Source: Schmidtea polychroa
Taxonomy: Eukaryota
NCBI GenBank assembly: GCA_044892525.1
Contig: CM097885.1
Coordinates: 2,792,001-2,856,000 of the forward strand
Direction: 5' to 3'
Length of the DNA: 64,000 nucleotides
The translations under genes and the position numbers were made by a program. Below the pieces are notes generated by a model. The model did no database searches. It was not told the DNA's origin and saw only the letters and a program-made list of their open reading frames with translations. Of this stretch, positions 6,341-62,679 are shown piece by piece (position 1 is the stretch's first letter; each line of letters opens with the position of its first letter).

Positions 6341-6595
6341 ACGATTGGGTTTAGATGATCCGGAGAGAAGTGGATCCGTCAGAGGTAGGAAATAGCATCC
6401 TTGCCTAACACAACTAGTCTTTGGCAACTGTGGTTCATTCTCTTGATAGTGCAACGGAAACAAGTTTGTTCCGTCTTTTATAGGGTATTCCCGAACCCTT
6501 CGTTGGATTTCGGCCTCGGAATATACTTTATGCAAGGCTTCCGACTGAAACTTCATTGTTCGGATCCAATTTCGCCTCGGGCTTTCTCTTGTCAC
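6275..6595 (-). pseudogene. Fragment of an unknown repeat-encoded ORF homologous to 14685-15311
   Basis: Shared QSEALHKVY...PI....N.FP.H...C.GC motif string. Confidence 0.55.
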
Positions 6596-9539: not shown

Positions 9540-11340
<1,801 letters not shown>

Positions 11341-21900: not shown

Positions 21901-22208
21901 TGTTATTTTGTTAAAAAGTATTTCAATTACCAATATTGATTTTTAATGGTGTAATGGATGTCTAACATTTGAATAATATAAACATTACAAGCTTTGTGAT
22001 AACCAGTGCAAATCCCTATAGTAGACTAGTTTCGAGCTTAGCTAAAGGTTTACAGATGCACTTATGACCAGTTTCTGTGTCAAGACTATTTTGTTCTTCA
22101 GAGGTGAATATGATTTTTCATTCGCCATGTCTACAAATTTGCAGACATTTTACTGTTAATTAGCTAATTTGCAAGTGATGTAATTTCCAGTGTAGCAGGG
22201 AAAGTATG

Positions 22209-24378: not shown

Positions 24379-24419
24379 TATACTTACCTGGCGCGAAGAG
24401 AAATCTTCGCGTCTCCTGC

Positions 24420-24461
24420 ATAGTACTGCTGAGAGCCAAAAGCTCGAAACTCGTCTATTAT
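24420..24461 (+). ncRNA. Minimal type I hammerhead ribozyme motif (Penelope pLTR type), core variant
   Basis: ATAGTA-CTGCTGA-GAGC caaaa GCTC-GAAAC tc GTC-TATTAT, with stems I and II pairing; partial inverted copy with GAAACTAGTC at ~22015-22039. Confidence 0.7.
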
Positions 24462-24662
24462 TGGTATTCGCACTGGGTATCGCAAAGCTTGTAATGTTTA
24501 TATTGATTTTATTTATATTTATATTTTTGCTATGGTGATTTTGAATTTCGTTTTAATCTGTTCAAATAAATTCTAATTTCACATAAATTTCTTTAAATAA
24601 TTACTTTTTTATTTTAATATTTCATGAAAAATATTTATTTTTATATTTTGATCTATTTTTAA

Positions 24663-24875
24663 AGTAGTAGAAAGGGAGCCCGCGAAACCAGGAGCCCGCG
24701 GGGACAAAGACATATACCCCCCCTCACCCCCGGGGGTAAAAATTTTTAATTTTTTTTTTCAAGGTCAAATTTTTTTCTTTAAAACCAGGAGCCCGCGGGG
24801 ACAAAGACAATATTTTCAAATTTTAGAATCTTTTTTAATTTTTAGAGTTCCCGCCAATGAAAATTCATCCACAAT
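24663..24875 (+). mobile_element. Polinton-type left terminus
   Basis: AGTAGTAG, duplicated GGAGCCCGCG, ACATATACCCCCC..CGGGGG..AAAAATTTTT, TCAAGGTCA; the same GGAGCCCGCGGGGACAAAGAC repeat resumes at 29.7-30.9 kb. Confidence 0.75.
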
Positions 24876-24949
24876 GTCACGCCGTTTGGACTCATGGGAG
24901 CACCAGCAATGTTCCAGAGAGCAATGAACCTAATGCTAATGGATGCTCA

Positions 24950-25095
24950 TCACGCAATGGTATATATTGATGATATCATTGCTTTCTCACAACCTTAGGG
25001 GAAACATCTGGAACATCTAGGACATCTGGAACATCTCGAGGATGTGTTCAAGAGATAAATTGAAGCCAAATTAAAAGTCAAGCTGCAAATGCTAA
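24950..25095 (+). pseudogene. LTR-retrotransposon RT fragment
   Basis: VYIDDIIAFS...HLEHL...EAKLKVK. Confidence 0.7.
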
Positions 25096-26439
25096 TGAGC
25101 CGAATCAGAAATGAATGAACTCAACCTGGTAGCTGAATTATTTATCCTGTGCTTATAGGAACCTGCAGCATCCTGCTATCAATACCAGCCAACCAATTAT
25201 ACCTTACAAACAACCAGCGGGAATACATCTCAGCTTAACCATCTGTGAAAGCATATACATTCGAAATCGATATGCCGATTAATCAGAATCTATTGGCAAT
25301 ATGTTGTTGAAAGAGTCAGCAGGCACTCAACCTGATGGCTGAATGTTTGAGTTCTTCCTTATTTTATATTGTGTAAACATATTTGTTATTATGGATGTAT
25401 AGTGCCTTTCGGGAGCAGTAAGTTGCCACTAATCCTGATGTGATACCGCTACCTCTACCCCTTCTCTAATACTTCATATCCCCTCATATGAATAATAATT
25501 TACCATTATGCCATTGGCGTATCTAATGCTTTACTGATCCATCTCAGCCATGTAGAGGAGCCATTGAAAGCTTGGTCAGACCGCGTGCCAATACTGATGC
25601 TTATTTCGGAAAAGACTGTCAAATCATCTTCATTGCCCTCATAAACATTACACAAATACCCTCAGTCTGGGACACATTTCTCGCTATCCGTTCTGAGTAA
25701 GCAGCCGTGTTGTAGAGCTCCTTTCATGCATGCCATCCGATATGTCAGTGTAGGATCTTGTCTGTGTACAAGTTTCCGCACCTTCACATTGAGCAGCTAG
25801 AAAGGATAAAATCAAATTCCCTCAACTCGTTATTAATTAATATTCATACACAAGGTAACACCATAGGCAATGCTTAGCTAAATATTCTCCCTTTCCTAAT
25901 ATTGAGGTTTCTTGCCTACGGAATAAGTGATATGTAATTATATTTGTGTCATTGCTGATTATTACATTTCAGCTCTAGGCGAAGATGAATGTCCAGGACC
26001 AATATGGACAATGATATCTGGTCAAGGAAATTTATGTCTTCTTTTCAAAAAACTTTACTAATTCCAGAAACTCGTACAACTCTGGCATGTGGTCTTTATT
26101 TAATATCGGTAAAATTTCGAGAATCAATGAAAAATAACATGGACACCGAAGTTGTGGCATGAAAGTAAAATTTGCCACGATAAAAACTATTTAGATCCCT
26201 GTCAGGTGAATGAATTTAATAAAGAAGCAAGAGCATTGAAGCATTTGTAAAGACGAGTTTATTTCCAGAATTCTCCTAATATGCACCTTCAAGCTGAGCC
26301 TTGCAGACAGTAACAAATCTGTAAGCCTGGATGAAATTTTGGATGTTGTCGATATTGAAGGATGAAGTTCCACCAAACTAATGGAGACACTTGAAAGAAC
26401 ATCTTAACTTGAAAAGTGGAACTATTTCATTCAAAGAGT

Positions 26440-26610
26440 CAGCACCAAATTTATTGAAAATATTTCAGTTTCTCTATTCGATTCCGTTTCGAATGCGACT
26501 GTTGAAAGAATTTTTAGTGTGAAGGGCAATCTATGTACTGAGGAACGTAATCGGATGTCGTTGAATTTAGTAAAAAGCGAACTTTGTATCTGCTTTCATA
26601 TCACTTATAC
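26440..26610 (+). pseudogene. hAT transposase C-terminal relic
   Basis: SIPFSNATVERIFS...ERNRMSLNLVKSEL. Confidence 0.65.
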
Positions 26611-27929
26611 ATGACAAAATGTAAAAGAAATATTTGCTAAAAATAAAAAACACCTAAAAGCTACTTTGCAGCATAGCCTAAGGTTTATATTTAAATTTTG
26701 TCCGGTATTCTTTAAGGTTTCACCTGGCAACATAGTTATCATACAAATAATTTTTATATCGTGTATATGCTCTATTCTTGGCAATTTTATATATTTCATA
26801 ATTAGAAAAATGCAAAATAAAAATTTCCAATTCAAACAATTAATGGGATTATATTTACAATTAATATCATGGAGAGCCTCTGTTTTTATGCTGAGAGATA
26901 TTTATGTAATTTGTCTTAATGGCCTTCTGTTTGTTTATAAACAATAAATACAGCTATAAATATAATATCAAAAATGGTAGAAACACCCACAAATTTATAC
27001 AAGAATTAAACTTAGCGTTCATATTCTAAATATTGTCTTTAGGTAATCTCAAATAATTTCTAACTAATACACGAATCAGAAAAAGCTGTGGTTTTGGAAC
27101 CAGATATTAATTCGTATTGGCCGCGTTCAAACGAAGTTGCAAGACCCTAAAATTAACTTTCGATTAAAAGGCTCTCCAAAATTAAATTCTTGATGAAAGT
27201 GTTCGTGATTCACTGAAAGAAGTAATTCGAATTTGCAAGGAATGGGACATTGAATTTCAAAAACGATATAGAAGAAAAATGAATGGATGGCTAAACATAG
27301 AGTGATGCTGGTTTATCAGCTAAGGAAGAAATAGAAAGGGATATAAAATGATAATTGAATTAAAAAGAGAGTTTGAAAAGACTATAAATCAGTAATATAT
27401 AAATTAGTCTTCAAACTCTCTTTTTAATTCAATGGATAAAATAATTAGAGGTGAAATTGGAAGAAATAAAAGTTCTTATAAGAATATATTGATTTTATTG
27501 ATATTTCTATTTCTGCTATGATGATTTTGAATTTCTTTTTAATCTGTTCAAATAAATTCTAATTATTTTATTATTTTATGAAAAGTAATAATTTTTATAT
27601 TTTGATCTATTTTTAATTTGTGTTTTCCGTTTAAAAATTTTATTTATTTTTCCAATAAAATTTTACTTTTTGTTATCCAATTATAATTTAAATAATTTTA
27701 TAATATTTAAAACAAATGAGAAAAACGCTGAAAATTAACATTAATAATATTTTTGCGCTCAAAGCTAAAATACAATATTTATAAAATGTTTGTTTATCTA
27801 CATCAAAATACAAATTATAAATATTGAAATTGTAAAGGTCAGCGGAAATAATCAATATAATAAGTATGATTTATGATTTATGTTGTAAAATGTTGAAATA
27901 TTTTGATTATTTTGTTAATTTTAGATAAA

Positions 27930-29360
27930 ATGTTTGCAAGCGTATGGGAAATGATGAAGAGAAATAAATTTGAATTTGATAATGAAATCAGCAGTGAATT
28001 GATATGCAGAATTTGCAAATGTGTAATGATAAAGGCTTGCCAAGCTCCTTGCGGTTGCCGCTTTTGTTCTGATTGCATTGAGCATTATTTCGATGGAAAG
28101 GATAAATTCTGTCCAGGAGCAGCAAAACATTGCGGAAAGAAAATAATAAATTTCAATAAAGATGTTTCTGAAGATCATGCGATCAATTTAAGGATTTCAG
28201 AGGTGATAGTGAAATGCCCAATGCAAAATTGTCAATTCAAAGTTGAATTAGAAGTGATGGAGAGCCACATGAGGGCATGCAACAAGCAGCCAATAAGATG
28301 CCCGTTCAATAGAATTGGATGCGAAACCAATGAGGTGGTGAAGGATGAAATGAGAGTCCATCTCAATGAGAACAATGAAGGCCATAGCAAATTACTGATT
28401 GATCAGATCAGCAATTTGTGCAGTGAGATGCGAGAAATGAGAGAGGAGAATGTGAAATTGCGTGAGGAAATTATCAATATCAATGTGAAATTTTATTTGC
28501 AATTAATTTAATTGATATTTGTGATTGTAGGTGAAATTGTGCAATATAGAAAGGAAAGAGGCGGAGAACAGAGCAGAAATAGAAGAATTGAATGAGGAAA
28601 TGGTGGCATTGAAGAATGAGAATCGCTCATTGAGAATGGAGATGGAGACAAATATTGGATCAATCAATCAAGTTTGATTATTGATTTGATTTGTTTTTGA
28701 TTTATCATTGATGCAAAGCAGATAAGACAGCAAATTGAGGTGATTGAATCAAAATGTCAACAGCAAATTGATGAGATGAAAGAGAAATGCGAGCAGCGGC
28801 TGCAACGGGAGAATGAAAATGTGATTTATAGATTTATTGAAATGTTTGAATTTGAGATTCAGTTGCAGCTTGAAATGGCGAAATGCGCCAATGAAATTCG
28901 GCAGATTGAAACAAAATTAGGAAGTGAAAAATATATAAATTATGGATTTTTTGAATGGGAATTCGATAAATTTTCACAACAAGAGAGAAATGAATGGATT
29001 TACAGCGAGGCATTTTATTCCTGGCCAATCGGTTACAAAATGTGCTTGTGGGTGCTGATTGGGGATGATTGGGTTAATGTTGGTTTCTGTTTGATGCGTG
29101 GGGCAAATGATGAGCAATTGGATTGGCCGTTCAATCAATCAGTGACAATCGATGTGATCGATCCAGCAAATGGCAGCATTTATAGGAGAGAGTCAAGGAA
29201 ATATTCAGGTTGGTTTGATGATGTCGGATGGGGGAAACCGTCAGATGACAGAAATGATCAAATTTGCATATATAATTATGATTATTCAATCAATGAAATC
29301 GCAGCCAAAAGTGATAAATTGCTGCTCAGGTGCAGAATTGAAAAATTCTTACAAATTTAA
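27930..29360 (+). CDS. TRAF-like adaptor/E3 ligase, copy 1 (RING, TRAF Zn finger, coiled coil, MATH); 4 coding exons
   Basis: CRIC..CGCRFCSDC..CP RING; CPMQNC..H...C and CPF..IGC..H fingers; MATH SEAFYS..GYKMCL..MRG.ND..L.WPF. GT-AG introns 28485-28530, 28671-28721 and 28821-28868 keep the frame. Confidence 0.9.
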
Positions 29361-29699
29361 AAAACATTTCAATAAAAATTTGATTTATTTTGGCTTTTGA
29401 TCTGATTTATTATTTGCCTAATTATTATTATTGATTTATTATATGAGATTATTATTGTGATAATCATTGTCACCTCTCTCGTAATTTGATTTCGCTGTGT
29501 AAAATTAGTTCGGATCCAATTTCGCCTCGGGCTTCCTCTTGTCACTTTGAAGAATTTATCCATTGACGACTTACCTTAATTTGATTTTGAGGTTCTCTCA
29601 CATCGCTCGAGTTTTCCATTGTCTCGGGTTTTCCACTGTCTCTGATTCTCCATTAGTTAATATATTTTTAATAAATTTTAGTTTTTTATAATTAATGAC

Positions 29700-31037
29700 C
29701 CCCACTGAATTTATTTTATTATTATTTTAAAAAATATTATTTTTCAAGGTCAAATTTTTTTCTTTAAAAACAGGAGCCCGCGGGGACAAAGACATTTTTT
29801 TCCCAAGGTCATTTAAACAAAGACCATGACTCATTCAAGGTCATTCTCAAGGTCGTATGACTCATTCAAGGTCATTCTCAAGGCCGAATGACTCATTCAA
29901 GGTCATTCTCAAGGTCGAATGACTCATTCAAGGTCATATTATTATTTAAAAAAATATTATTATTTTTTTTTCAAGGTCAAATTTTTTTTTCTTTAAAAAC
30001 AGGAGCCCGCGGGGACAAAGACAATTTTTCCATGGTTCCCGCCAATGGAATTAATTTAACGATGACTTATTTTGAAGCCCACTACAAGACCTTTCGAATG
30101 AGGTATAGACATCCTTACTATCATTATTATTGGTAAAGATATTATTATTTTTTCAAAATATTATTTTTCAAGGTCAAATTTTTTTTTTTAAAAACAGGAG
30201 CCCGCGGGGACAAAGACATTTTTTTTCAAGGTCATTTAAACAAAGACCATGACTCTTTCAAGGTCATTCTCAAGGTCGTATGACTCATTCAGGGTCATTC
30301 TCAAGGTCGCATGACTCATTCAAGGTCATTCTCAAGGCCGAATGACTCATTCAAGGTCATTCTCAAGGTCGAATGACTCATTCAAGGTCATTCTCAAGGT
30401 CGTATGACTCATTCAAGGTCATATTATTATTTAAAAAAAATTATTATTTTTTTTTCAAGGTCAAATTTTTTTCTTTAAAAACAGGAGCCCGCGGGGACAA
30501 AGACATTTTTTTTTCAAGGTCATTTTTTTTCAAGGTCATTTTTTTCAAGGTCATTTTTTTTTCAAGGTCAAATTTTTTTTTCTTTAAAAACAGGAGCCCG
30601 CGGGGACAAAGACAATTTTTCCATAGTTCCTGCCAATGGAATTAATTAAACGATGACTTATTTTGAAGCCCACTACAAGACCTTTCGAATGAGGTATAGA
30701 CATCCTTACTACCATTATTATTGGTAAAGATATTATTATTTTTTCAAAATATTATTTTTCAAGGTCAAATTTTTTTCTTTAAAAACAGGAGCCCGCGGGG
30801 ACAAAGACATTTTTTTTTCAAGGTCATTTTTTTCAAGGTCATTTTTTAAGGTCATTTTTTTTCAAGGTCAAATTTTTTTTTCAAGGTCGAATTTTTTTTT
30901 CAAGGTAATTTTTTAAAATTTATATTTACAGAGTTCCCGCCAACGAAAATTATTCAACGATAGCTCATTTTAAAGCCCAATTCAAAACCTTTCGTATCAG
31001 CCATATATCTTATTATTAATATTATTATTTCTAAAGA

Positions 31038-31116
<79 letters not shown>

Positions 31117-31420
31117 CTATGTACTCTGAGTTTATCCGACAAAATATTCTGTCCCCCTATGGGTAATGCTCACAAAGGTAATGGTAAAAAGGGTACTACT
31201 CGCATTCAACATGTCTCAAACGGTATAATATAATTTTTATTAAATTTAGACCAACTTAAATCAATAAATGGTAGGACAAAAATATATTACGTTGCGGTAT
31301 TTTAAAATTTAAATATATTTTAAAAACTTATTTTGACGCTAAAGTTGACTTATTTAACAAAGACACAATTATTGCACATGCTTTGCATAAATATTATTAT
31401 TATTTATTATTATTATTATT
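29700..31420. repeat. Polinton subterminal repeat region: GGAGCCCGCGGGGACAAAGAC units, 31-bp TGACTCATTCAAGGTCATTCTCAAGGTCGTA arrays, (ATT)n and a ~90-bp CCGACAAAATATTCTGTCCCCCTATGGG repeat
   Basis: Directly visible; the ~90-bp unit recurs inverted at ~40525-40600. Confidence 0.85.
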
Positions 31421-31676
31421 TTTATTATTATTTGCAAATTTCTAATTATTATTTTAGAAGTTTCATTATTATTATTATTTACTTAAATATTCATAAAACT
31501 TAATTTCTACGTCAATTACATGATTTTCAACATTTTCATGATTAAACATAAAATAATAATATTTAAAAAATAATAATAATATTTAACAAATAATATTTTA
31601 AACATAAAATAATAATAATAATATTTAACAAATAATTAAAATAGTCAACAAATAAAAATCATACAGTATACATTTA

Positions 31677-32061
31677 TTAACCATCAAATTTTTTATACAA
31701 CAACCATGCCAAACAGTGTTGACCACATGTTTGAGTCAATGGATTTTGAAACATAGTTTTATTATATACAATAGGTTTCCCAATTGTTTGAAGTTTTGAT
31801 ATCAACAAAGCCGGGTAATAAAAACCCATAGGATCGAATACGAATATATTACTAGGTTTCACATATATAGCTATCCAATGTTCTCCACCAAGATGAGACG
31901 AATGAGTATTGACAATTATGGCTTGATTATTGCTCAAATAAGGAATTTTATCGAGAGGAAAAACTCCTACAAATTCATTTCCTAATATTTGTTTTCCAAT
32001 TCGATTAACCTGAACAGAACTACTTTAATAAAATTAAACATTATCAAAAAACTTACTCCAT
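31677..32061 (-). CDS. Adenain-like cysteine maturation protease (start in a 5-nt micro-exon; putative 34-nt intron 32023-32056)
   Basis: FVGVFPLD, IVNT..S..GGEHWIAIY, FDPMG, Q...TQTCGQHCL (H-D-Q-C catalytic set); ATGGA|GTAAGT..AAAG|T restores MDSSVQVN. Confidence 0.88.
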
Positions 32062-32089
32062 GACAACTTTTTTGTGTTTCTGTATACAT

Positions 32090-33313
32090 TTATACTAGCA
32101 CGGTTCTATTTGCAGTAATTTGAACTTCATTTTCAAATACTCCATATATTATAACATGTACCGGTTCTGTAATGGCCTTTGCAAACTTAATATTCAGTCG
32201 TAAATTCCCGTTTTGTGGTAGTTGACTCTGATTTAAATCAAAATCGAGAGCTAAAACAAATGTGAAAAATGGGTATTTGCTTTTAAATTCTTCTAGAGTT
32301 ATTCTACAATTCAAGTTTTTATCTAAATAACCAAGATTTCTAACAATATTCTGCATATATGTCGCACAGTAATTATCGCTTTCGAAATCTTGAGTATATT
32401 TTTCTCTATAATCAGTATTTTTCGACAAAGTCAATGAAGTAACACCAAAATTTTTGAAAATTGAGCTGGAAGCAGTATAAGATCCATTATATTGCGTTTC
32501 ACTTTGAAATGTTACCAGAATAAAATTAGGCATTCTTCTATCACCAAATATTTGTTCTTTATAGAATGATGAAGCACCTTTAGCAATAGCGAATTGTACA
32601 ATTTCCTTTGTTTTTAAAGGATAAATTGCATGTTTTGAATTAAGACCTAATTGGTGACCCGCTAATACTGAGGGGTCTACTCGAACTCTTCTCACCAATA
32701 ATTTTGCATCAACTAATTGACATATTGGTGCACCAGTTGCACTAGTAAGAGGTAATGCAGAATCAGACCTTTTCAGTCTAATATGTACATTAACCCCCGG
32801 TAGTAAATATTTCGGTTGATCCATAAAATCGATTTGTAATGATGAGCACATGGTGAAAACCTTTGAGCCTTTAACCCACTTTTTTCTTTCATCATCTGCT
32901 GCTGCATAACCCATGGGAGTAAGACATGTATTTTTAGTATCGAAATTGTAATTTAAAATAGTTTCTATCAAAGCCTTGTGAATGAATGTATTATTTCCGC
33001 CCTCAATCTTGATATTATTAAATCCCAACACTGCATCTTTAAAAAGAGTATGAAACATGAAATTGTTCGGTATTACATCAGCATTGGCATCCAAAACTTT
33101 TCTATCTTTATCTACAACCTTGATCTGAACAGTCAATAACGTATCGTTCAAATCTAAATATTCAGTTTGCGAACCATTAATATAAAACTCGATATCATTT
33201 CTACTATCGGTAATTGAATTCATAGGAAAAACTTCCTCAAATGCCCCAAATTCTATTACAGCCTGGGGCGATGGTCTATCAAATATACATAATTCAGATT
33301 TACCACAAATCAT
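32090..33313 (-). CDS. Polinton major capsid protein (double jelly roll, PY/hexon-like)
   Basis: 407 aa; KSELCIF..P.PQ, IEFYI.G...YLDL, QPKYLLPGV.V.I.L.R, FDL......GNLRL.I.FA. Confidence 0.9.
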   Translation of the reverse strand: MICGKSELCIFDRPSPQAVIEFGAFEEVFPMNSITDSRNDIEFYINGSQTEYLDLNDTLLTVQIKVVDKDRKVLDANADVIPNNFMFHTLFKDAVLGFNNIKIEGGNNTFIHKALIETILNYNFDTKNTCLTPMGYAAADDERKKWVKGSKVFTMCSSLQIDFMDQPKYLLPGVNVHIRLKRSDSALPLTSATGAPICQLVDAKLLVRRVRVDPSVLAGHQLGLNSKHAIYPLKTKEIVQFAIAKGASSFYKEQIFGDRRMPNFILVTFQSETQYNGSYTASSSIFKNFGVTSLTLSKNTDYREKYTQDFESDNYCATYMQNIVRNLGYLDKNLNCRITLEEFKSKYPFFTFVLALDFDLNQSQLPQNGNLRLNIKFAKAITEPVHVIIYGVFENEVQITANRTVLV

Positions 33314-33672
33314 TTTGCAAATATAGTTCCATGTCCTTTCATTCGTTTGTTTATACGTGATATTCCATGTCTTTTACGCTTTGGAGCTGGAGCTGGAGGC
33401 GTATCTTTTTGAAACATACCTGCAACCCCAGGTAAAACTTTCCCTAATTCAGCTAAAGCATTTGTTTTTAGAGATGGTAATATTTTCTGTTCATTCATAA
33501 TAACATCTTTTGCAGTTTTCATACCAAAACTACCAATACGTTTAAGAATAGGCAATGCAAATCTACCAATTGTTCTCAACCATCCCGATCCGTACTGTTT
33601 ACCAATAAAATATGGTAATTCACCGCCAGATTGGCTACCACTATACATACTAATAATATCAGAATTAGCCAT
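33310..33672 (-). CDS. Small basic virion core protein (pVI/pVII-like)
   Basis: QSGG and QYGSG protease-site-like motifs followed by amphipathic WLRTIGRFALPILKRIG; basic C-terminus; lies between mCP and MCP. Confidence 0.7.
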   Translation of the reverse strand: MANSDIISMYSGSQSGGELPYFIGKQYGSGWLRTIGRFALPILKRIGSFGMKTAKDVIMNEQKILPSLKTNALAELGKVLPGVAGMFQKDTPPAPAPKRKRHGISRINKRMKGHGTIFAK

Positions 33673-34708
33673 TTATTTTACGAAAATGTAATGTCAAATG
33701 AGTTTTTGAACCTTTTGGAAAGTTTATAAGTTTTCCACTATCATCACAAATATTTATTTCTATATTGTTTATACATGAACTTGCTATTGGTAAATACATG
33801 GGATTATCGATATTTATATTGACAACTTCATCATGTTCATATTTTCCAATCCATACCGATTTCAAAAGAGGAACACTGGAATCACCAACAATTATGGGTT
33901 CGATAATGTTAGTATATATGAACATTTGTTGATGATGTTCTAGTATTCTTGGTTTGTGTATACCAATCGATTTTTCTCTATATTTTTGCTTATCTAATCC
34001 AAGTGAATTTGCCAAATTTTTATCAAATGTAACTTCGCAAATATCCTCATTCAAACTGAAGGTAAACATCAAATCTTTCACAATTTCCAAATTTTTAAAT
34101 ATGTGTGAACAATTGAACTTTAAATATTTAAGTAAATCATCAAGTTTATCAATATATAATTCATCAGCAAAGGTAAATGATTCTTCAACTTCATCATTAT
34201 ACGACACAGATATTTTGATTTCTTCTTTCATTACACTGTTTGCTTCAAATAGATTAAAACGTAATAAATACTCGGTCTCTGTAACAATATTTTTCAACTT
34301 ATTGCAACCCATTCGTTTGGCATCTTCAATTTTTTCGAATGTTATTGTAAATGGTTTAAAATCACAACTGATATTTAATCCATCCTTGTAAAACATATAG
34401 CAATGCGAATCTAATATTTGATTCGGAATATGATATGTTTTATCATAATTACTAATAACAAAGATACCGCTACATGTTTTCACAATATTCCTTCTGAAAT
34501 CAATCTTACAATGACTATAAAATGGGAATGTGTTGTACACGAATGTAAAATCTTGCAGTGCAACTTCCCAGTCACCATTTAAAGAAATCGGATTTTGGAT
34601 ATTGACCATAAATTTACTGGCTTGATTGTCTGGATGAATTAATGGGCAACTATTGCTCGGTAAAATAGTATAAAAATTCACTTTACTAGGTCTTTTGCTG
34701 ATATCCAT
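33665..34708 (-). CDS. Minor capsid protein (penton-like, PX); in frame with the upstream integrase
   Basis: FYTILPSNS..HPDNQASKF..I.L.GDWEVAL; FIYTNIIEP.IVGD..VPLL; Y.P.....INNIEI.I.D..G..I.F..G.....LHF. Confidence 0.85.
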   Translation of the reverse strand: MDISKRPSKVNFYTILPSNSCPLIHPDNQASKFMVNIQNPISLNGDWEVALQDFTFVYNTFPFYSHCKIDFRRNIVKTCSGIFVISNYDKTYHIPNQILDSHCYMFYKDGLNISCDFKPFTITFEKIEDAKRMGCNKLKNIVTETEYLLRFNLFEANSVMKEEIKISVSYNDEVEESFTFADELYIDKLDDLLKYLKFNCSHIFKNLEIVKDLMFTFSLNEDICEVTFDKNLANSLGLDKQKYREKSIGIHKPRILEHHQQMFIYTNIIEPIIVGDSSVPLLKSVWIGKYEHDEVVNINIDNPMYLPIASSCINNIEINICDDSGKLINFPKGSKTHLTLHFRKING

Positions 34709-34709
34709 G

Positions 34710-35275
34710 ACGGGTTTATCCTTACCGACCTTTTTAGTTTTCAATATTTTTTGAATTCTAAATACTTTTGGGGGAGGAATGACTTGTAATTCCTGCTCAT
34801 AAAATTTCCCTTGTACAATATTATTATCATTGTCTTTGATGACATACATTACAGGATTCTGTTTAGTATTTATTTTTGAAATTACAAAGACTTCATCACT
34901 CCAATTTGTATCAAAATGTTTAATAAATGGTGATGCACTAATTTTACTAATTCTAACATGGTCACCGACTTTATATTTAGGTTTTGCAATTTTTACAGAT
35001 TTCTTAGAATAAAATGTTTTTGATGTAATATCAACAGGTCTCAATCCATTCAGTCCTCGATGTGATGAATGATTATAACTTGTTATTATTTTCGGTAAAG
35101 CATTTACCCATTTTTTATTACCTTGATGCACGAACAATTTCTTTAATCTATCTCTCAATGTTCGATTAAATCTTTCAACATGGGCAGCTTTGTATTGAGA
35201 ATGTACCGAGTAGTGATTTATTTTCAGTTTATCGAGGATTTGCTTAACTTTGCTATTGTAGAATTCTTTACCTAA

Positions 35276-35370
<95 letters not shown>

Positions 35371-35758
35371 CTAAATCTGTTTACAAGTTATTAGGATGTC
35401 CATCTTTAAATAAAATATTAATTGCCTTGGACATTTCTTCTGCAGATTTTGCCTTGACTGGTATTGCTCGTGCAAACCTGCTGTATACATTAATACATGT
35501 TAAAATATATTTATTTCCATTGTTAATTTTCGAATAAGGTATCATCTCCATCAAATCCATTTGCCATAAATCGTCAATACCAAATGTTTTATATGCTCTT
35601 GTTGGAAATCTTTTCCGCATTGGTTTGTTCAAACTGTACGCAAGCTGATCTGATAACCACTTCTGGGTTTCTTTTTTCGAATTCGGAACTCTTTTCTCTA
35701 ATTTTGCCACTCCACCGAAACCGGCTTCGTCTTCTGGGTTCGTCCAAATCTTCTCCAT
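34710..35758 (-). pseudogene. Retroviral-like (c-INT) integrase with a 99-nt microsatellite intron (35272-35370), a nonsense codon at 35381-35383 and a truncated chromodomain
   Basis: WQMDL, L*TDLG|KEFYN, KAAHVERFNRTL, YNHS.H, KYKVGDHVRISK, NWSDEVF, GKFYEQELQ. Confidence 0.9.
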
Positions 35759-35819
35759 TACAACAAGAAGATTTAAAATTAAATTTAATGTCGGGCAATG
35801 AAGGATTAGCACCCATTGT

Positions 35820-36347
35820 TTATGACTGTGTAACTCCACCTAATAATGATAATGCCAGAGGTATCAATGCACCAATAAATCCACCTTGTTGTTTATCTAT
35901 AATTTTCCTCATTTGCTTACGATTTTTATTATTTACTAAAGATAACAATGCTTTCCTATGTTTGCTCAATAAATGCTTTTTTGATTTACTGATTTTAATT
36001 TTGCCTTTGACTACTTTAAGTATAATATTGAGTAAATCATCGACAACGAAATTTGGGAATGATTGCAATATATTCATTCTTTTCATACTCGGGGCCTTTA
36101 ACAATGCATTAAGAAATGGAAAACTGCGGTGATTTTTAACTACTTTTTTACTGGTTTTACTGGTTTTACGGGTTTTACGTTTAGGTTTAGGATTTTTCGA
36201 AATAAGATTCATTGCAGAGAAATTTTCAGTTACAAGTTTTTTAGATGGTGTATAACTAGTTGTTGGTGGAACTTTTGGAACTTTAATACTCTTTCTAATA
36301 CTTTTTCTTAATTTCCTAATATTTTTCACCCTTGCTTTTAGAAACAT
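35820..36347 (-). CDS. Basic virion core protein with adenovirus pX-like C-terminus
   Basis: Lys-rich; ends QQGG/FIGALIPLALSLLGG, resembling adenoviral pX GG/FLPALIP. Confidence 0.7.
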   Translation of the reverse strand: MFLKARVKNIRKLRKSIRKSIKVPKVPPTTSYTPSKKLVTENFSAMNLISKNPKPKRKTRKTSKTSKKVVKNHRSFPFLNALLKAPSMKRMNILQSFPNFVVDDLLNIILKVVKGKIKISKSKKHLLSKHRKALLSLVNNKNRKQMRKIIDKQQGGFIGALIPLALSLLGGVTQS

Positions 36348-36365
36348 TATTATTCATAGAGGTTT

Positions 36366-36992
36366 TCAACTTTGTTTATAAACCATGGCACCTTTTGGGT
36401 TGAAAATATCGGTTTTTACTCGTAAATCATCGGGACATTGTTGTGTGAAATCAAGAAATATATATCCATGAGGTATTTTTGTAGCATCTTGAAATGCACT
36501 GATAAGAAAATTACGATTGTTAGGGTATGCTTGACGTGCAAGAAAATCAATCACTGTTGCATCTCTAGGATTCTTGAAAATAACTAAATATTGTACATTT
36601 AAATTACGTGTTCGATGTGCCCCACCTTGATGAAATAGATTTTGTGTTATGAAAATAACTGTTACACCGACATGTCTGCTGATCTTTGTAAATAAATTAT
36701 TAAAATCTTTTTCTTTATTAGCTTCTTGATACAGATCATCGATAATAATGACATCACCTTTCTTTAATCGGCTGGACCAGTTTTTATCGAATCCCTTTAC
36801 TATTTTCATGTTTTTTAATTTACAGAAACTTGATTGAGTTAATCCATGTTCTTCATCAGCACCCTTATGCCAATAAATCCTGTTGAATTTTGATTTGAAT
36901 AAATTTGATTTTAGTAATTTACAAACAAATAATGTTTTTCCACTACCACTCGGACCAACGATTTGGTATACTGCATCATTTCTTAATTCCAT
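36366..36992 (-). CDS. A32/FtsK-HerA family genome-packaging ATPase
   Basis: Walker A GPSGSGKT, Walker B IIIDD, SRH, ITQN, R..N..YLV.FKNPRD. Confidence 0.92.
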   Translation of the reverse strand: MELRNDAVYQIVGPSGSGKTLFVCKLLKSNLFKSKFNRIYWHKGADEEHGLTQSSFCKLKNMKIVKGFDKNWSSRLKKGDVIIIDDLYQEANKEKDFNNLFTKISRHVGVTVIFITQNLFHQGGAHRTRNLNVQYLVIFKNPRDATVIDFLARQAYPNNRNFLISAFQDATKIPHGYIFLDFTQQCPDDLRVKTDIFNPKGAMVYKQS

Positions 36993-37097
36993 TTCAAAAA
37001 TTTTATAAATATATATATGTATTTGTTTATATTCAATGATTTAATGAACTCGTGCTCAATTTGTATATAAAGACAAATTTTCATAAATGATTTAATA

Positions 37098-37535
37098 ATG
37101 TTAGCAAATATAAATTATCGAGGAAATTTTGATGTATCGAATATGAGGTTCCCACCAGGGAAACCCCAGCAAATTATCGATAGAAGCGGGAAATATCCGA
37201 TAATATTTTTCAAGACTGGTAAATGCAGAATCATGGGATGTAAGAAACCCTTGGATATTAATAAATTACAATATCGAATAAATAATATTATAATCCAATC
37301 AATTACCGTTACTATGGATATGGGACATAGTATCAATCTATATAACATATCGAAAAAATGTGATTGTATGTTTGAACCGGAATTGTTTCCGGCGCTAAGA
37401 CTATTAAAATATAACCCTATATGTGTCAACGTGTTTGCTAGTGGAAAGGTTGTCATGCTGGGGTTGAGAAATTTGGAGTATAGAGAATTTGTTGACAATG
37501 TTCGAAATGAGATAATTTCATTGGTCGATTTCTAA
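37098..37535 (+). CDS. TATA-binding protein (TBP)-like protein
   Basis: Two TBP half-repeats: IIFFKTGKCRIMG and IQSITVT.DMG..INL...FEPELFPAL...VNVFASGKVVMLG. Confidence 0.8.
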   Translation: MLANINYRGNFDVSNMRFPPGKPQQIIDRSGKYPIIFFKTGKCRIMGCKKPLDINKLQYRINNIIIQSITVTMDMGHSINLYNISKKCDCMFEPELFPALRLLKYNPICVNVFASGKVVMLGLRNLEYREFVDNVRNEIISLVDF

Positions 37536-37606
37536 TTGGTTAATTTATAATTGGTTATTGATTGATTTAAACAAACGGTTTGTGTTTAGAATTCATTTAT
37601 TTCACT

Positions 37607-38010
37607 ATGTACAAAATACCAAGCGCAGCGAATTTAATGAAAGAAATAGATGATTATGGTAAATTTTTATTTTTTGTTTACAAATTTAAATATTATATTT
37701 TTCAGAAGAATATGCTGCAGTCATGCTAAAGAAGTTAGCATTCTATTATCCAGAAATCAATGCAGTAGTATACAACAAGCCTGCAGAATTAATCCCCGAT
37801 TTGGTGTTCAATGCGACGGGGATAAGGATGTTAGAGATTTTCCATCAATTTATGTGGGATGTGAAGATAAATCGAACAATTAAACATGTGGATCCAGAAT
37901 ATTTATGTTACAATAGCTGTTCCTGCTGCAAAGCTAGATATCAGCGATATGTAGAATGGGTTTTGGTTAAAACTCTTCGGGATTTCCACCATATCAAGAA
38001 TGCATTTTGA
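37607..38010 (+). CDS. Hypothetical protein, 2 exons (intron 37659-37705), Cys cluster
   Basis: GT-AG intron joins MYKIPSAANLMKEIDDY in frame to EEYAAVMLKK..; AATAAA follows the stop. Confidence 0.6.
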
Positions 38011-38372
38011 ATGTTTTTAACAAATAAATGTTATTTAGTTTTCGTTATTTTGTTTTTGATATTTTATATATTTTGATAATAATAATAATAGTAAAAATAT
38101 TAATAATAATGAAACATATTAATAATAAATCTGAAAATAGAACATGTAATAATTAAAACACATAAATAATAAATCTGTAAATAGAACATATAATAATTAA
38201 AACACATAAATAATAAATCTGTAAATAGAACATATAACAAAACATGTGACAATGCAACATCAATGCATTTTGAATGCAATTTAAACAAAGACATGCTATA
38301 ATCTGATTGGTTGATAGGCATGAGTCAAAGGTATAAAAACCCTGTAACATTTAAATTTATTCATTATTCACG

Positions 38373-38783
38373 ATGACCAAGAAAATTTCAAGCACCGAAA
38401 AACCTAAAGAAATGGTACAACCATTTCAAATGTTCCACAACTACAAAATGTATTTTTTGAAAGAAGAAATCAATATGAAATTGGTTGCACCAGTCAAGCT
38501 AATTCCAACTAAATTTCAATTCTTATCCGGCACGCTTTCAATGATTGATGTCAAAACTATTGATGATGTTTTTAAACGGATAGATTCGAATCTATCGTGT
38601 AATCAACATGCATGGTTCAACAATAGATATGCAAGATTTTATGATGCTTTTGATGAAATCAGTTTCAAAGAAAATGAAAATTGGTATATAACAATTGCAA
38701 TCCAGGGATATAAAGTTGATAATAATGATGTATATTCTCCTATTTGGAAAATTATGTCTGCTAGACTTTCACAAATATTTTAA
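38373..38783 (+). CDS. Hypothetical 136-aa protein, possibly an OB-fold ssDNA-binding protein
   Basis: ORF with upstream CCAAT/TATA and downstream AATAAA; beta-rich aromatic C-terminus WYITIAIQG..YSPIWKI. The fold is inference. Confidence 0.5.
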   Translation: MTKKISSTEKPKEMVQPFQMFHNYKMYFLKEEINMKLVAPVKLIPTKFQFLSGTLSMIDVKTIDDVFKRIDSNLSCNQHAWFNNRYARFYDAFDEISFKENENWYITIAIQGYKVDNNDVYSPIWKIMSARLSQIF

Positions 38784-38910
38784 TGTTATATTTAATAAAT
38801 GTATCAGTCAGATTTGTTTTTTCTCTTTATTAATTGCAACATAAATTCAAATGACATGCAAATTTAACAAAGAAAATCTATAAACAAACTTATAATATAG
38901 TTTTAAAGTG

Positions 38911-39287
38911 ATGAAAATGACTGCAGAAAAAGGTTAACATGATTAATTAATTACCGAATTATTTATTATTTAGAATTTTTAATCAACTTTTTGTTGGAAA
39001 AGTTAGCAGAAATAGCTGGTGTGAAAATTGAGGACATATTATCTATTACAAATGCCTTAAATATCGGCTGGATAGTTGAGAGTCAAGATACAGGATTTGA
39101 TGATCAGGAAGAAGAAACTCAAGAAACTGATACTCAAGAAATTGATGAGGAAATATATGAACCTATAGATGAACCTATAGAGGAGCCTAAAGATGAACCT
39201 AAAGATAATATTACGAATGATTGTATTGATCATGTCGTTGAAAATATAATGAAATGCGGAGATGACGACTGCGAATGTGTTAATTAA
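38911..39287 (+). CDS. Acidic hypothetical protein, 2 exons (intron 38933-38973)
   Basis: MKMTAEK E|FLINFLLEK in-frame splice; E/D-rich EPID repeats; AATAAA overlaps the stop. Confidence 0.55.
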
Positions 39288-39364
39288 TAAATCTTAGTTA
39301 GTTAGTGTTTGTAAATTTATTTAAAATTTTATTTAAAAATGAAACAAAATAACTATATTAATTT

Positions 39365-39879
39365 TTATTTAAAAAATCGCGATAAAGCATGCAAAATAGC
39401 AACACCTGTTGCAAGTTTTATATAGTTTTTAAATTTCATTTTCTGTTCATCTATTTCCTTCGCATTTCTGGCGAGTTGATTCAGTACGCCCCATCCGCCA
39501 TTGGCTTCAATCCATGGTTGAAACTTTGACTTGATTATCTAGAAAATATATATTAATAAAATATAGATTATAAAAGTATTACTTCTTGAGACCACTGATA
39601 ATAATGTTCAGAGTCCCATAAACTTCTTTCGATTATGATCTTCATATAAGCGAACCCTACTAGTATTCGGGTCCACTTCATCTCATCATCGCATAGACAG
39701 TTAAAAATCCTATGAAAATAGAATTTTTTCGTTTCGAGGCAATCGCAATTGAGCATATCTTCATAATCAATATGATTTCCTTCTATAATCTTTTCGGTCC
39801 GATCGACCAGGAAACTGAGGCTTTCCATAATCTTCTTGTTGATAAGTTCGCTTAAAAGATTTTCCATAAAATGAGACAT
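39365..39879 (-). CDS. Bcl-2 family protein, 2 exons (44-nt intron 39539-39582)
   Basis: BH1-like DEMKWTRILVGFAY in exon 1; spliced exon 2 IIKSKFQPWIEANGGW (BH2) and hydrophobic tail YIKLATGVAILHALSRFFK*. Confidence 0.82.
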
Positions 39880-39984
39880 CTCTACAATAATTTAAAATAT
39901 GATGTTTTATTTATACTAATACCGTATGATTTTGATTGGTTGATAGACTATAAATGTAAAAGAAAGGTTTTGATTTGATACACC

Positions 39985-40485
39985 ATGAAAACTATATTCA
40001 TATTGCTAATTATTATAACGAGTGTGTGCTCACACAATACAACAATAACAGTGGAGTCTTTTAATAAATCAATATGTGTTTGTCCGAATACCGCCAAGTT
40101 GATGGATATTTTATATATCCTCGATAAACCAAAATGGTCAAAGCATCCAGGAAAAAGAATATCTCAAAGATTGGAGAATTTAGAAAACAGTTATGAACTA
40201 TCATTTGCATATATACAAAATATAAAAATTAAATTGATTGATCATATTGAAGTTTTCAATAACTCTATTGTTGAAAATAAGAAGAATATGAAAATTATTG
40301 ATAAGAAGCATGATTATTTGTTAAAAAAGATTGAATTATTATTAAGAGAAATTCAAACAATCAAAGGATCAATAGAATATCTGAAAATCAATTCAACGTT
40401 ACCAATTTCAAACAATAATGCTGCGAATAGTAGTACATCAATATTAGGTTTACCTTTGTTAATTTTACATTATTTTTTTGTTTAA
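39985..40485 (+). CDS. Secreted or GPI-anchored coiled-coil glycoprotein
   Basis: Signal-like MKTIFILLIIITSVCS, several N-x-S/T sequons, heptad-rich middle, small-residue stretch plus hydrophobic end NAANSSTSILGLPLLILHYFFV. Confidence 0.6.
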   Translation: MKTIFILLIIITSVCSHNTTITVESFNKSICVCPNTAKLMDILYILDKPKWSKHPGKRISQRLENLENSYELSFAYIQNIKIKLIDHIEVFNNSIVENKKNMKIIDKKHDYLLKKIELLLREIQTIKGSIEYLKINSTLPISNNNAANSSTSILGLPLLILHYFFV

Positions 40486-40647
40486 ATAAATGTATGTTTT
40501 GTTGATTTGTTTAATAATACCCTTGTGAGTTGTTGAGGGTGAGCAGTACCCTTTTGAGCATTACCCATAGGGGGAGAAAATATTTTGTCGGATAAACTCG
40601 GGGCAGTACCCTTGCGAGCAATACCCAATAATAATAATAATAATAAC

Positions 40648-40734
<87 letters not shown>

Positions 40735-40869
40735 TTAAGTCTTACCTGATTGGGTGAATGATAAATCACCCGCAAATTTCTTCATATAATTAAAGTCTTA
40801 CCTGATTGGGTGAATGATAAATCACCCGCAAATTTCTTCATAAAATTTGCTATAAATTTGCTATAAATT

Positions 40870-41439
40870 AGTGTCTGACTAAAAAATTAATAACCTTTAT
40901 ACTACTAATGATAAAAATTATTTCTATGGCTCAAAAGATTTGTCTTCGTCGGGGCTTCAAAATGAACTATAAAATGTTAAAATACTTTGAGATTTAGACT
41001 ACGTTTTGGGCTGACGAAAAGTAGGACTCCGCCAGCACAGATAATAATATTTTTGAAAAATAATAATAATTTTTTCATCAATCAGTGTCTGACTAAAAAA
41101 TTATTTTTATGGTTCAAAAGATAGATCTCCGTTTGGGCTTCAAAATGAACTATAAATTTTTAAAATATTTTAAGTTTCAGATTATGGTTTGGGGTCACGA
41201 AAAGTAGGACTCCGCGAGCACAGTTAATAATATTTTTGAAAAATAATAATAATTTTTTATGAGTCATCGGATGAGTCATTGTCTTTGTTCTAGACGAGTG
41301 ATGAGTCATCGGATGACTCATTGTCTTTGTTCTCAAGTCGACCTTGAAAAAAAAATTTTAAAAAATTTTTTCCTGCCGGGGGGGGGGGGGGGTACTGTGC
41401 TCGCGGAGTCCAGTTTTCCCGGTGCCCAAACCACCTACT
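40870..41439 (-). repeat. Polinton right terminal region (duplicated ~190-bp unit, TGA(G/C)TCA repeats, G-run, terminus)
   Basis: Minus strand reads AGTAGGTGG..GGACTCCGCGAGCACAGTACCCCCC..GGAAAAAATTTT..TCAAGGTCG, the same layout as 24663. Confidence 0.7.
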
Positions 41440-46369: not shown

Positions 46370-46402
<33 letters not shown>

Positions 46403-53654: not shown

Positions 53655-55818
53655 CTATCATTATATTATATTGTCTGATGGTTCATTTTTAAACCCACTG
53701 CAAGACACTTTGAATGAGCTATAGATATATTTATTATCATTATTACTTTTAAAGATATTAATAATTGAGGACCAGCATCTTTTTCAAAGTTCATTTATTA
53801 TTATTTTTCAAAATATTATTAGTGTTCTAGCGGGCACATGAGTAGTATGATATGAGCTCCCCAGACCATGAGCTCCCCAGACCACATATACCCCCCCGGG
53901 AAAAATTTTTTTTTTAAATTTAATTTTTTGTTTTAATTAATTGGTCCAGAGGGCTCACACTTTTTTTCATCCCAAAAATTAATATTCCCACCAACGGATT
54001 TTATTGAACGATACCTCATCTTAAAGCTCAGTTCAAGACCTTTCGAATGAGCTATAGGTATCTTATATATCTTTAATAGTTTTAATGTTATTAACAATTG
54101 ATGACCACCATCTTTTCAAAGTTAAATTATTATTATTTTTCAAAATATTATTATTTTCAAGGTCAAGGTCAAGGTCATTTAATTTTTCAAGCTCAAGGTC
54201 AAGGTCATTTTTTTTTAAATTTTATTTTTTTTTAATTAATTGGTCCAGAGGGCTCACACTTTTTTTCATCCCAAAAATTAATATTCCCATCATTCTATTT
54301 CATCGATCGATAGCTTATTTTGAAGCCCAGTGCAAGATCTATCTTTTGATATATAAATATTATTATTATTATCATTATTATTGGCAAAATTATTAACGTT
54401 TTCCCGAGACCATTTTCAATGTCATTTGACTATTTTATTATTATTTTTCAAGGTCATTTATTATTTTCAAGGTCATTTACTTTTTCAAGGTCATTTAATT
54501 TTTCAAGGTCATATTTTAAAAATTAAATGTACAGAGTTCCCGCCAACAAATATTATAGCTCATTTTAAAACTCGGTCCAAGACCTTTCGATTGATCTATA
54601 GAAGGTATCATCACCATTAATATTGACAAAGTTATTAACATTTAACCAAAATCATTTTCAAGGTCATATAATTATTATTTTCAAAAATATTATTAAGTGG
54701 TCTGGCGGTGACCAGGTTTTCGTTTGCCCAAAAGTTATCGTTCCCATTATCCGAATTTATTAATTGATAGCTTATTTTGAAGCTTAGTGCAAGATCTATC
54801 TGCTAATGTATAAAAAATTATCATTATTATATATTATTATTGGCAAAATTATTAACGTTTTCCCGAGACCATTTTCAATGTCATTTGACTATTTTATTAT
54901 TATTTTTCAAGGTCATTTATTATTTTCAAGGTCATTTACTTTTTCAAGGTCATTTACTCCGAGTTTATCCGACAAGATATTCTGTCCCCCTATGGGTACT
55001 GCTCACCAGGGTACTGGTCAAAAGTGTACTACTCACACTCAACATGTCGTAATCTATTTTCAAATACAATTTCAAAGTATTATTATTATTATTTATTATT
55101 ATTATTATTGAAAAATCTAAAATATGGTTCACACACACACACAACCCATTAACAATTATTATTATCAATATTAGTGAAAAACCTAAAATATTTTTTACAC
55201 AACCCATTAAACTTTATTATTATTATGATTATTATTATATATACTCAGAGTTTATCCGAAAAAATATTCTGTCCCCCTATGGGTATTGCTCATATGGGTA
55301 ATGGTCAAAAGTGTACTACTCACATTCAACATGTCTTAAAGGGCATAATATACTTATTATTAAATTCTGACCAACTTAAATCAATGAAAGGGTATGACCA
55401 AAAGGCATTAATCAATTTGATATAAGGCAATTTTAGTATTGCATTTAGGTGCATTTTACTGCCATTCAGTACAGCAATAATTTTTCCACAACTCATATAA
55501 CATCAGCAGCAGCAGCGATGGCGGTTTTCTCGTCGGTTCCATTCGTCATAGGAGCGCTTGATTTGTTGAGGCGATTTGTCAGCGCTTATATTCGGGTGGA
55601 TTTTGATTGGATTATTTCTTTCACATTAATTATTAATTTAATTATAATAAATATAATGATAATATCGGATGGAAGGCGCGGGGGGGGGGGGGGAGAATGA
55701 CAATGATTATCACAATTATTAGCTCATATAATAAATCAATAATAATAATAAGGCAAATAATAAATCAGATCAAAAGCCAAAATAAATCAATTTTTTATTG
55801 AAATGTTTTTTAAATTTG

Positions 55819-62639: not shown

Positions 62640-62679
<40 letters not shown>

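What the first reader, a model, noticed from the sequence alone, without database searches (positions are those of the whole stretch)
24520..29700. The other TRAF copy is also embedded in Polinton terminal sequence, and that terminus abuts a TRAF-upstream sequence
Seen: TRAF copy 1 lies between the terminus at 24663 and the continuation of the same GGAGCCCGCGGGGACAAAGAC repeat family at 29.7 kb, directly beside the capsid module. The ~140 bp left of the terminus (24520-24662) is a diverged copy of the TRAF 5' flank (27490-27616), cut exactly at GATCTATTTTTAA|AGTAGT. Inference: the element inserted next to a TRAF paralog and captured one, a second independent TRAF-Polinton contact in 64 kb.
Basis: partly seen in the sequence, partly recalled or inferred. 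Interest (0 to 1): 0.72.

Follow-up and report, generated by a model that had tools for sequence, protein, structure and literature searches.

The report
TRAF gene inside broken Polinton end
An intact host immune-signalling gene (TRAF) really does sit between two pieces of the end of a virus-like Polinton transposon, but together with unrelated transposon debris in a broken copy, so it looks like a trapped bystander rather than a gene the element carries around.

Summary
The coordinates hold. A Polinton-type terminus starts at 24663, its repeat family stops at about 24870 and resumes at about 29693 on the same strand, and an intact three-intron TRAF gene lies between. The flank 24484-24662 matches 27469-27616 (135 of 146 columns; 0 of 500 shuffles reach the score) and is cut at the terminus. 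The inference is weaker. TRAF is 1.8 kb of a 4.8-kb mosaic that also holds reverse-transcriptase, hAT and LINE remnants. The shared flank lies outside the block duplicated between the two TRAF copies. The two TRAFs share no Polinton junction. The element has unmatched ends, no target-site duplication and no polymerase gene. Best reading: passive entrapment in a dead element (0.5), or two trimmed elements around a resident TRAF cluster (0.33); true mobile cargo about 0.1. Other genomic copies could not be examined. The scan's notes hold no earlier TRAF-Polinton finding; a comparable host gene array crowded by Polintons was noted elsewhere in this genome.

The parts
24390..24504 (+). Penelope-like terminal repeat remnant that truncates the shared flank on its left (class assigned from recalled motifs, not from a library hit)
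   Evidence: 24440-24504 matches 21975-22039 inverted at 89% over 65 nt; no Rfam match; fold not better than shuffles
24484..24662 (+). R1: AT-rich block (14% GC), cut at its right end by the Polinton terminus
   Evidence: 135 of 146 columns identical to R2; 0 of 500 shuffles; no third copy in the window; GC
24663..24870 (+). Polinton family-A left terminus and first ~205 nt
   Evidence: start motif and repeat boxes; 75 of 96 columns to the family-B terminus at 53841; homology to later units ends at 24868-24875
24864..25075 (+). Reverse-transcriptase remnant (Ty3/gypsy-like by recalled motif), starting in mid-domain at the junction
   Evidence: RVT_1 E 7.9e-8, profile positions 114-161 of 205, residues 2-44 of 24861-24995; stops further on
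25076..25990 (.). Unassigned 40%-GC sequence, probably further decayed elements
   Evidence: no Pfam match better than E 0.02 in its stop-free stretches; no match elsewhere in the window
25990..26733 (+). hAT transposase C-terminal remnant and probable right end (limits approximate)
   Evidence: Dimer_Tnp_hAT E 0.0016, below cut-off, in 26408-26611; broken frames
26734..27468 (+). AT-rich spacer and a second transposase-like remnant (hAT-like by eye only)
   Evidence: translation; no supporting Pfam match
27469..27616 (+). R2: uninterrupted copy of R1, i.e. the 'empty site'
   Evidence: not shared with the TRAF2 upstream region (145 of 500 shuffles)
27685..29472 (+). Block duplicated with TRAF2 (57478-55698, minus strand); holds TRAF1: ATG 27930, introns about 28485-28530, 28672-28721, 28821-28862, stop 29360, about 430 aa, RING-zfTRAF-coil-MATH
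   Evidence: acceptor sites ambiguous (426-433 aa among the six best models); no RNA evidence
29504..29692 (-). Fragment matching the upstream (5') end of the LINE-type element at 3243-6725
   Evidence: 159 of 171 columns to 6555-6725; RVT_1 E 2.3e-30 in 3243-6329
29693..31440 (+). Family-A subterminal repeat array, then inner terminal-repeat block
   Evidence: six repeat boxes; unit identity to the 24788 unit 45-46 of 46-48, among themselves 45-48 of 46-48
31680..40485 (.). Polinton core: protease, capsid-like, integrase (interrupted), packaging ATPase, TBP-like and accessory ORFs; no polymerase gene
   Evidence: Peptidase_C5, rve, Pox_A32, TBP; 7 of 10 other L001 ORFs match here, its 1,078-aa ORF matches only at 45169-45687 and 107-478
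40531..41439 (-). Right end of the core, of a different type (family C) from the 24663 end
   Evidence: 79 of 104 columns between first 120 nt of each; one 190-nt inverted block at 83%, partly microsatellite; flanking hexamers differ
55698..57478 (-). TRAF2 block, about 424 aa, the paralogue used for comparison
   Evidence: 360 of 424 residues identical to TRAF1

Best explanation
One family-A Polinton inserted into an AT-rich block (R1) that is a paralogue of the sequence just upstream of TRAF1, so it landed in or beside a host TRAF cluster. Later its left end was split about 205 nt from the tip: a LINE inserted there and/or a break was repaired with neighbouring chromosomal DNA, replacing roughly 60-90 nt of the repeat array with 4.8 kb that happened to contain a TRAF gene among older transposon remnants. 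TRAF1 is therefore physically inside a Polinton end, but as a passenger in a broken, non-autonomous copy; it stays an ordinary host gene with its own promoter region and introns, and nothing shows it was ever moved by the element. Shown: the anatomy, the junction positions, the broken state. Inferred: that both pieces come from one insertion, the order of events, the repair mechanism.
For: Same family, same strand, and family A occurs nowhere else in the window. Pieces are complementary: the left one has the tip and stops 25 nt into a unit; the right one has no tip and begins with a 16-nt box whose best match (3 mismatches) is in the first unit of the intact family-B end and which is absent from later family-A units (8-9 mismatches). 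R2 shows the uninterrupted site. The insert begins in the middle of an RT domain and ends in a LINE 5' fragment, which are break-type, not gene-type, borders. No matched right end within 4 mismatches of the first 20 nt, no target-site duplication, no polymerase in the core. TRAF1 nests among lineage-specific relatives (12 database proteins in the tree, 99/98 support for the clade holding it).
Against: The register argument rests on one post hoc 16-mer (37 of 1,000 shuffles match as well), and the array is repetitive, so a fit can arise by chance. Unit identities do not separate one copy from two. Many truncated Polinton arms lie elsewhere in the window, so two trimmed copies are plausible. No other genomic copy could be seen, so cargo status is not excluded. 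The junctions were not checked against reads.
Confidence: 0.5

Rival explanations
1. Two elements, resident gene. TRAF1 never entered an element: a local duplication made R1 and R2, one family-A Polinton inserted into R1, another downstream of TRAF1, and deletions removed most of the first and the tip of the second.
For: R1 and R2 lie 3 kb apart in direct orientation with no third copy in 64 kb, as after a local duplication. Polinton end sequence covers 7,780 of 64,000 bases in 11 segments, several of them short truncated arms (one segment, 10183-10793, is probably only microsatellite). 428 of 3,931 free placements are as close to ends on both sides, 1,029 of 3,931 on one side (thresholds chosen after seeing the data). 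At least three end types occur. An earlier unchecked note reports the same crowding around an HMG gene array in this genome.
Against: Needs two insertions of the same family on the same strand and two deletions that leave exactly complementary pieces. Sequence upstream of R1 does not match that upstream of R2 (39 of 200 shuffles), so a larger tandem duplication is not visible.
Confidence: 0.33
2. True cargo. A Polinton subfamily or its non-autonomous derivatives carries intron-containing TRAF genes and has helped to multiply and scatter the TRAF family, as nematode Mavericks do with their cargo genes.
For: Both TRAF copies have Polinton end sequence within 0.3 kb on one side (244 and 295 nt) and within 2.8 and 0.8 kb on the other. 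TRAF2 lies between opposite-facing arms with 76 of 76 identical nt (55328-55403 versus 58489-58414). The duplicated block is gene-sized and young (5' flank 239 of 244 identical). Precedent: intron-bearing cargo between left TIR and integrase in nematode Mavericks (bioRxiv 2022.07.12.499685, section 11); a TRAF-like gene is listed in a figure legend for polinton-like elements (PMC8502044 passage).
Against: No Polinton sequence inside the shared block and no similarity beyond its ends (scores 25 and 49); TRAF1 lies on the tip side of the inner repeat boxes and TRAF2 on the inner side, so they are not at one element position. Unrelated debris accompanies TRAF1. 0 of 3 related element contigs carry a TRAF match (distant relatives, two of them short, so low power).
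Confidence: 0.1
3. Assembly artefact: one or both junctions (about 24870, about 29693) are misjoins in a repeat-rich region.
Against: The junctions fall between diverged, non-identical sequences rather than within identical repeats; R1/R2 and TRAF1/TRAF2 differ by many substitutions and indels, so they are not collapsed or doubled reads.
Confidence: 0.07

Closest known systems
Cargo genes of nematode Mavericks (wasp proteases, krma kinases; bioRxiv 10.1101/2022.07.12.499685, passages and section 11 read)
   Same: Intron-containing host-type gene in a 2-5 kb stretch on the left-end side of the integrase of a Maverick/Polinton.
   Different: [quoted passage not shown] Here the gene interrupts the repeat array itself, comes with unrelated debris, the element is broken, and recurrence is untested.
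Polintons/Mavericks (adintovirus-type) of animals (PMC8097293 and PMC8502044, passages read)
   Same: AGT-repeat start motif, subterminal repeats, integrase, packaging ATPase, protease, capsid-like genes; gene set shared with L001.
   Different: No matched TIR pair, no 6-bp duplication, no polymerase in the core: a degraded copy, the common state reported for vertebrate Mavericks.
Expanded TRAF/MATH gene family of planarians (PMC6109357 and PMC7586133, passages read)
   Same: RING, TRAF zinc finger, coiled coil and MATH; many divergent paralogues (14 database relatives at 39-100% to P0001).
   Different: The host is only inferred to be planarian-like (AT-rich, 42-50-nt introns, earlier unchecked notes). 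The passages read say nothing on genomic clustering or Polinton neighbours.
Burro/GYPSM1 giant LTR retrotransposons of planarians carrying a MATH_TRAF_C domain (PMC6431247, passages read)
   Same: A mobile element associated with TRAF-derived sequence.
   Different: There a domain is built into the element's own open reading frames; here a whole intron-containing gene lies in a DNA element's end.

Membership tests
Polinton/Maverick (intact element spanning 24663-41439) | AGT-AGT type start motif | tested here: met
   24663; motif as described in PMC8097293 passage
Polinton/Maverick (intact element spanning 24663-41439) | Matching terminal inverted repeats | tested here: not met
   79 of 104 columns between the two ends; no reverse copy of the first 20 nt within 4 mismatches
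Polinton/Maverick (intact element spanning 24663-41439) | 6-bp target-site duplication | tested here: not met
   hexamers outside 24663 and 41439 differ
Polinton/Maverick (intact element spanning 24663-41439) | Integrase, packaging ATPase, protease | tested here: met
   rve E 3.3e-5 (below cut-off; gene interrupted), Pox_A32 E 3.6e-7, Peptidase_C5 E 1.6e-6; 45-59% to L001 counterparts
Polinton/Maverick (intact element spanning 24663-41439) | Major capsid protein (double jelly roll) | tested here: inconclusive
   158 relatives, unnamed; 1 of 33 aligned members has a weak DJR-like match, E 0.039; no solved-structure match; not folded
Polinton/Maverick (intact element spanning 24663-41439) | Protein-primed family B polymerase inside the element | tested here: not met
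   the 1,078-aa ORF of L001 (endonuclease VII insert; polymerase identity from recalled motifs) matches only 45169-45687 and 107-478
Maverick cargo gene (nematode type) | Host-type gene with introns | tested here: met
   three GT-AG introns of 42-50 nt give an open 430-aa model; no RNA check
Maverick cargo gene (nematode type) | [quoted passage not shown] | tested here: not met
   TRAF1 lies within the repeat array, on the tip side of the inner box at 31134
Maverick cargo gene (nematode type) | Present in several insertions of the element with shared junctions | not testable with these tools
Maverick cargo gene (nematode type) | Horizontal transfer between species | not tested
   closest database relatives are 52-63% identical, which gives no sign of recent transfer; sources unnamed
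TRAF family | C-terminal MATH/TRAF-C domain | tested here: met
   PF21355 E 1.3e-14, 55.1 bits over cut-off 27.4
TRAF family | TRAF-type zinc finger and N-terminal RING | tested here: met
   PF02176 E 6.7e-7 over cut-off; PF00097 E 0.0036 below cut-off

The most novel reading that the evidence does not exclude
Polintons and their abundant non-autonomous derivatives in this genome pick up whole intron-containing TRAF genes in their repeat-rich ends and carry them to new sites, so that a virus-like element drives the expansion of a host immune-signalling family whose receptor-binding MATH domain is diverging fastest; TRAF1 is a capture caught before the accompanying debris has been trimmed, TRAF2 one between paired arms.
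Probability: 0.1. Interest if true: 0.75.

Novelty: new member of a known kind. Interest (0 to 1): 0.3.

Why it matters
If TRAF were mobile cargo it would give a mechanism for the large TRAF expansion reported in planarians and extend Maverick-borne host genes beyond nematodes, and it is directly testable by one genome-wide comparison. On present evidence it is more modest: a clear example of how a host gene can end up inside a Polinton end by insertion and repair in an element-crowded region, the kind of first step that cargo capture would need, but without proof of any later movement.

Tried and rejected
Whole genome: none held, so copy number of R1/R2 and of family A is unknown. Exact terminus pattern: 0 matches in viral contigs and metagenome contigs. 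TRAF exon 1 in metagenome contigs: 0 of 583 candidate stretches confirmed. Capsid-like protein in viral contigs: 0 of 38 and 0 of 10; in genome contigs 3 of 68, none with TRAF. R1 against plasmids: no match, as expected, uninformative. Polymerase remnant against phages and solved structures: nothing useful. Rejected: R as part of the conserved TRAF 5' region; 24663 and 41439 as one pair of ends; TRAF2 as the downstream half of the paralogue cut at 24663 (its upstream region differs); the TRAF block as a transposon of its own (no terminal inverted repeat, score 24, and no target duplication seen by eye); positive selection on MATH (dN/dS 1.39 but P 0.42-0.69); a hammerhead at 24390-24504 (no Rfam match; z -1.3). 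Literature searches for a Polinton-TRAF link: 3 papers; 5 papers; listings only, apart from papers named elsewhere; none of the passages read describes a host TRAF gene in an animal Polinton. The library lacks most subscription papers, figures are not held and no supplements were read; the figure and supplements of PMC8502044 could show which element bears its TRAF-like gene.
Full report
Setting. The window is AT-rich eukaryotic DNA full of transposon remains. No whole genome is held. The host is probably a planarian-like flatworm; this is an inference from composition, 42-50-nt introns and unchecked earlier notes on the same genome, not something I tested.

Observation. A Polinton-type terminus begins at 24663; its repeat box occurs at 24691 and 24788 and then six more times from 29773 to 30788, always on the + strand and nowhere else in the window. 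Homology of the left piece to the later units ends at 24868-24875. The right piece starts at about 29693, directly after a LINE-derived fragment. The block left of the terminus, R1 (24484-24662), matches R2 (27469-27616) at 135 of 146 aligned columns, score 149; 30 shuffled queries reached at most 81 anywhere in the window, and the next real hit scored 64; 0 of 500 shuffles reached the score on the same target. R1 stops at the base before the terminus while R2 continues, so R2 shows the empty site.

The TRAF gene. TRAF1 has RING (below cut-off), TRAF zinc finger and MATH domains. Three short GT-AG introns give an open frame of about 430 aa; acceptor choice is ambiguous. TRAF2 (minus strand, about 424 aa) is 360 of 424 identical. 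The duplicated block runs from 27685 to 29472 (113 mismatches in 1,777 columns). Four database relatives match exon 1 at 52-63%; a search with one of them gave 18 proteins, 14 of them a close family. In a tree of the last exon (14 rows; 5 of the 17 proteins with a BLAST hit were left out for aligning over fewer than 100 residues, and P0012 had no hit) TRAF1 and TRAF2 are sisters (100/99) nested in that family (99/98). They are young members of an expanded host family, of the kind reported for planarians (PMC6109357 passages; PMC7586133 passages).

Is R a TRAF flank? Only for TRAF1. R2 against the TRAF2 upstream region scores no better than shuffles (145 of 500), nor does the 68-nt gap after it (169 of 500); R1 is borderline (25 of 500). 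R therefore lies outside the recently duplicated unit. Two copies 3 kb apart in direct orientation with no third in 64 kb suggest a local origin rather than a common repeat, but genome-wide copy number is unknown. Sequence upstream of R1 and R2 is unrelated (39 of 200 shuffles); R1 is cut on the left by a repeat also found at 21975-22039.

What lies between the Polinton pieces. TRAF is 1.8 of 4.8 kb. The insert opens in the middle of a reverse-transcriptase domain (profile positions 114-161 of 205, E 7.9e-8), contains a hAT dimerisation remnant (E 0.0016) and unassigned stretches (60 stop-free stretches scanned, 41 of them from this interval), and closes with 189 nt matching the 5' end of the LINE at 3243-6725 (159 of 171). 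These are the borders of breaks and deletions, not of a gene cassette.

One element or two? The left piece holds the tip and ends 25 nt into a repeat unit; the right piece lacks a tip and begins with a 16-nt box whose best match, 3 mismatches, is in the first unit of the intact family-B end at 53841, with 8-9 mismatches in five later family-A stretches. The pieces are thus complementary with roughly 60-90 nt missing. This favours a single interrupted end but is post hoc and modest (37 of 1,000 shuffles); unit identities do not discriminate.

State of the element. The core to the right has protease, capsid-like, integrase, ATPase and TBP-like genes and shares them with a related contig, L001, but no polymerase: the long L001 ORF matches only at 45169-45687 and 107-478. 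The right end at 41439 is of another type (79 of 104 columns), flanking hexamers differ, and no reverse copy of the 24663 tip exists in the window. By the criteria used for vertebrate Mavericks (PMC8097293 passages) this is a degraded copy.

Cargo test. If the element had propagated TRAF, the two copies should share element-gene junctions or position. They share neither: no similarity beyond the block (scores 25 and 49), TRAF1 on the tip side and TRAF2 on the inner side of the inner repeat boxes. Polinton end sequence covers 7,780 of 64,000 bases, and 428 of 3,931 free placements of a 1.8-kb block are as close on both sides as the two TRAFs (thresholds set after seeing the data; one covered segment is probably microsatellite). 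The two genes are recent duplicates and not independent trials. In favour of cargo remain the closeness of both genes to ends (244 and 295 nt), the paired arms round TRAF2 and precedent: intron-bearing cargo next to the left TIR of nematode Mavericks (bioRxiv 2022.07.12.499685, section 11), a TRAF-like gene named in a figure legend for polinton-like elements (PMC8502044 and bioRxiv 697771 passages) and a MATH_TRAF_C domain in planarian giant retrotransposons (PMC6431247 passages). Three distant relatives of the element carry no TRAF, a weak test.

Mechanism and odds. Most likely (0.5) one element inserted into a paralogue of the TRAF1 upstream block and its repeat-rich left end was later split and filled with neighbouring DNA; next (0.33) two elements were trimmed around a resident gene; true cargo 0.1; misassembly 0.07. 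The anatomy is shown; the number of insertions, the order of events and the repair route are inferred. The decisive evidence, other genomic copies and spanning reads, was not available.

Verdict. Observation confirmed, interpretation partly supported; a real but probably passive TRAF-Polinton contact. New member of a known kind, interest 0.3; 0.75 if genome-wide comparison shows shared junctions.

Noticed in passing
window 27685-29472 versus 57478-55698: The non-coding 5' flank of the two TRAF copies is more alike (5 differences in 244) than their synonymous sites (about 23 in 240; P 0.0003), while amino-acid changes concentrate in the MATH domain (P 0.004 versus the rest; dN/dS 1.39, not significantly above 1). 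Suggests promoter constraint or gene conversion with a diverging receptor-binding domain.
   Followed up: partly
window 53665-53841: The family-B terminus at 53841 sits directly against another Polinton subterminal unit (53665-53838 matches 53998-54511 type units), i.e. one Polinton apparently inserted into the end of another.
   Followed up: no
window 42819-47217: Inverted repeat of 871 nt at 97% with a polymerase C-terminal remnant in its centre (45169-45687); resembles the palindromic Polinton derivatives in earlier notes.
   Followed up: partly
window 31440-41439: Capsid-integrase-ATPase core without polymerase and with two different end types; could be a chimaera or a polymerase-less subfamily.
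   Followed up: partly
window 39571-39891 and 37071-37535: Accessory ORFs of the element: weak Bcl-2 match (E 0.034) and a TBP-like gene (E 2.1e-15), both noted before in this genome.
   Followed up: partly
window 53841-55403, 58252-58489, 62640-64000: TRAF2 lies between a left arm and opposite-facing arm pieces that are 97-100% alike over 76-198 nt; a better candidate for enclosure in one element than TRAF1.
   Followed up: partly
window 51860-51930: A fourth, more decayed Polinton-like terminus seen by eye.
   Followed up: no
window 24390-24504 and 21975-22075: Penelope-like terminal repeat with a hammerhead-like core by recalled motif; no Rfam match and no significant fold.
   Followed up: partly
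L001 1-12666: A Polinton with the same core genes, including a TBP-like gene, lies in a contig filed under a bacterial metagenome-assembled genome, probably misbinned.
   Followed up: partly
window 41440-42720: Tc1/mariner-type transposase (DDE_3 E 1.7e-18) directly abuts the right Polinton end at 41439.
   Followed up: no
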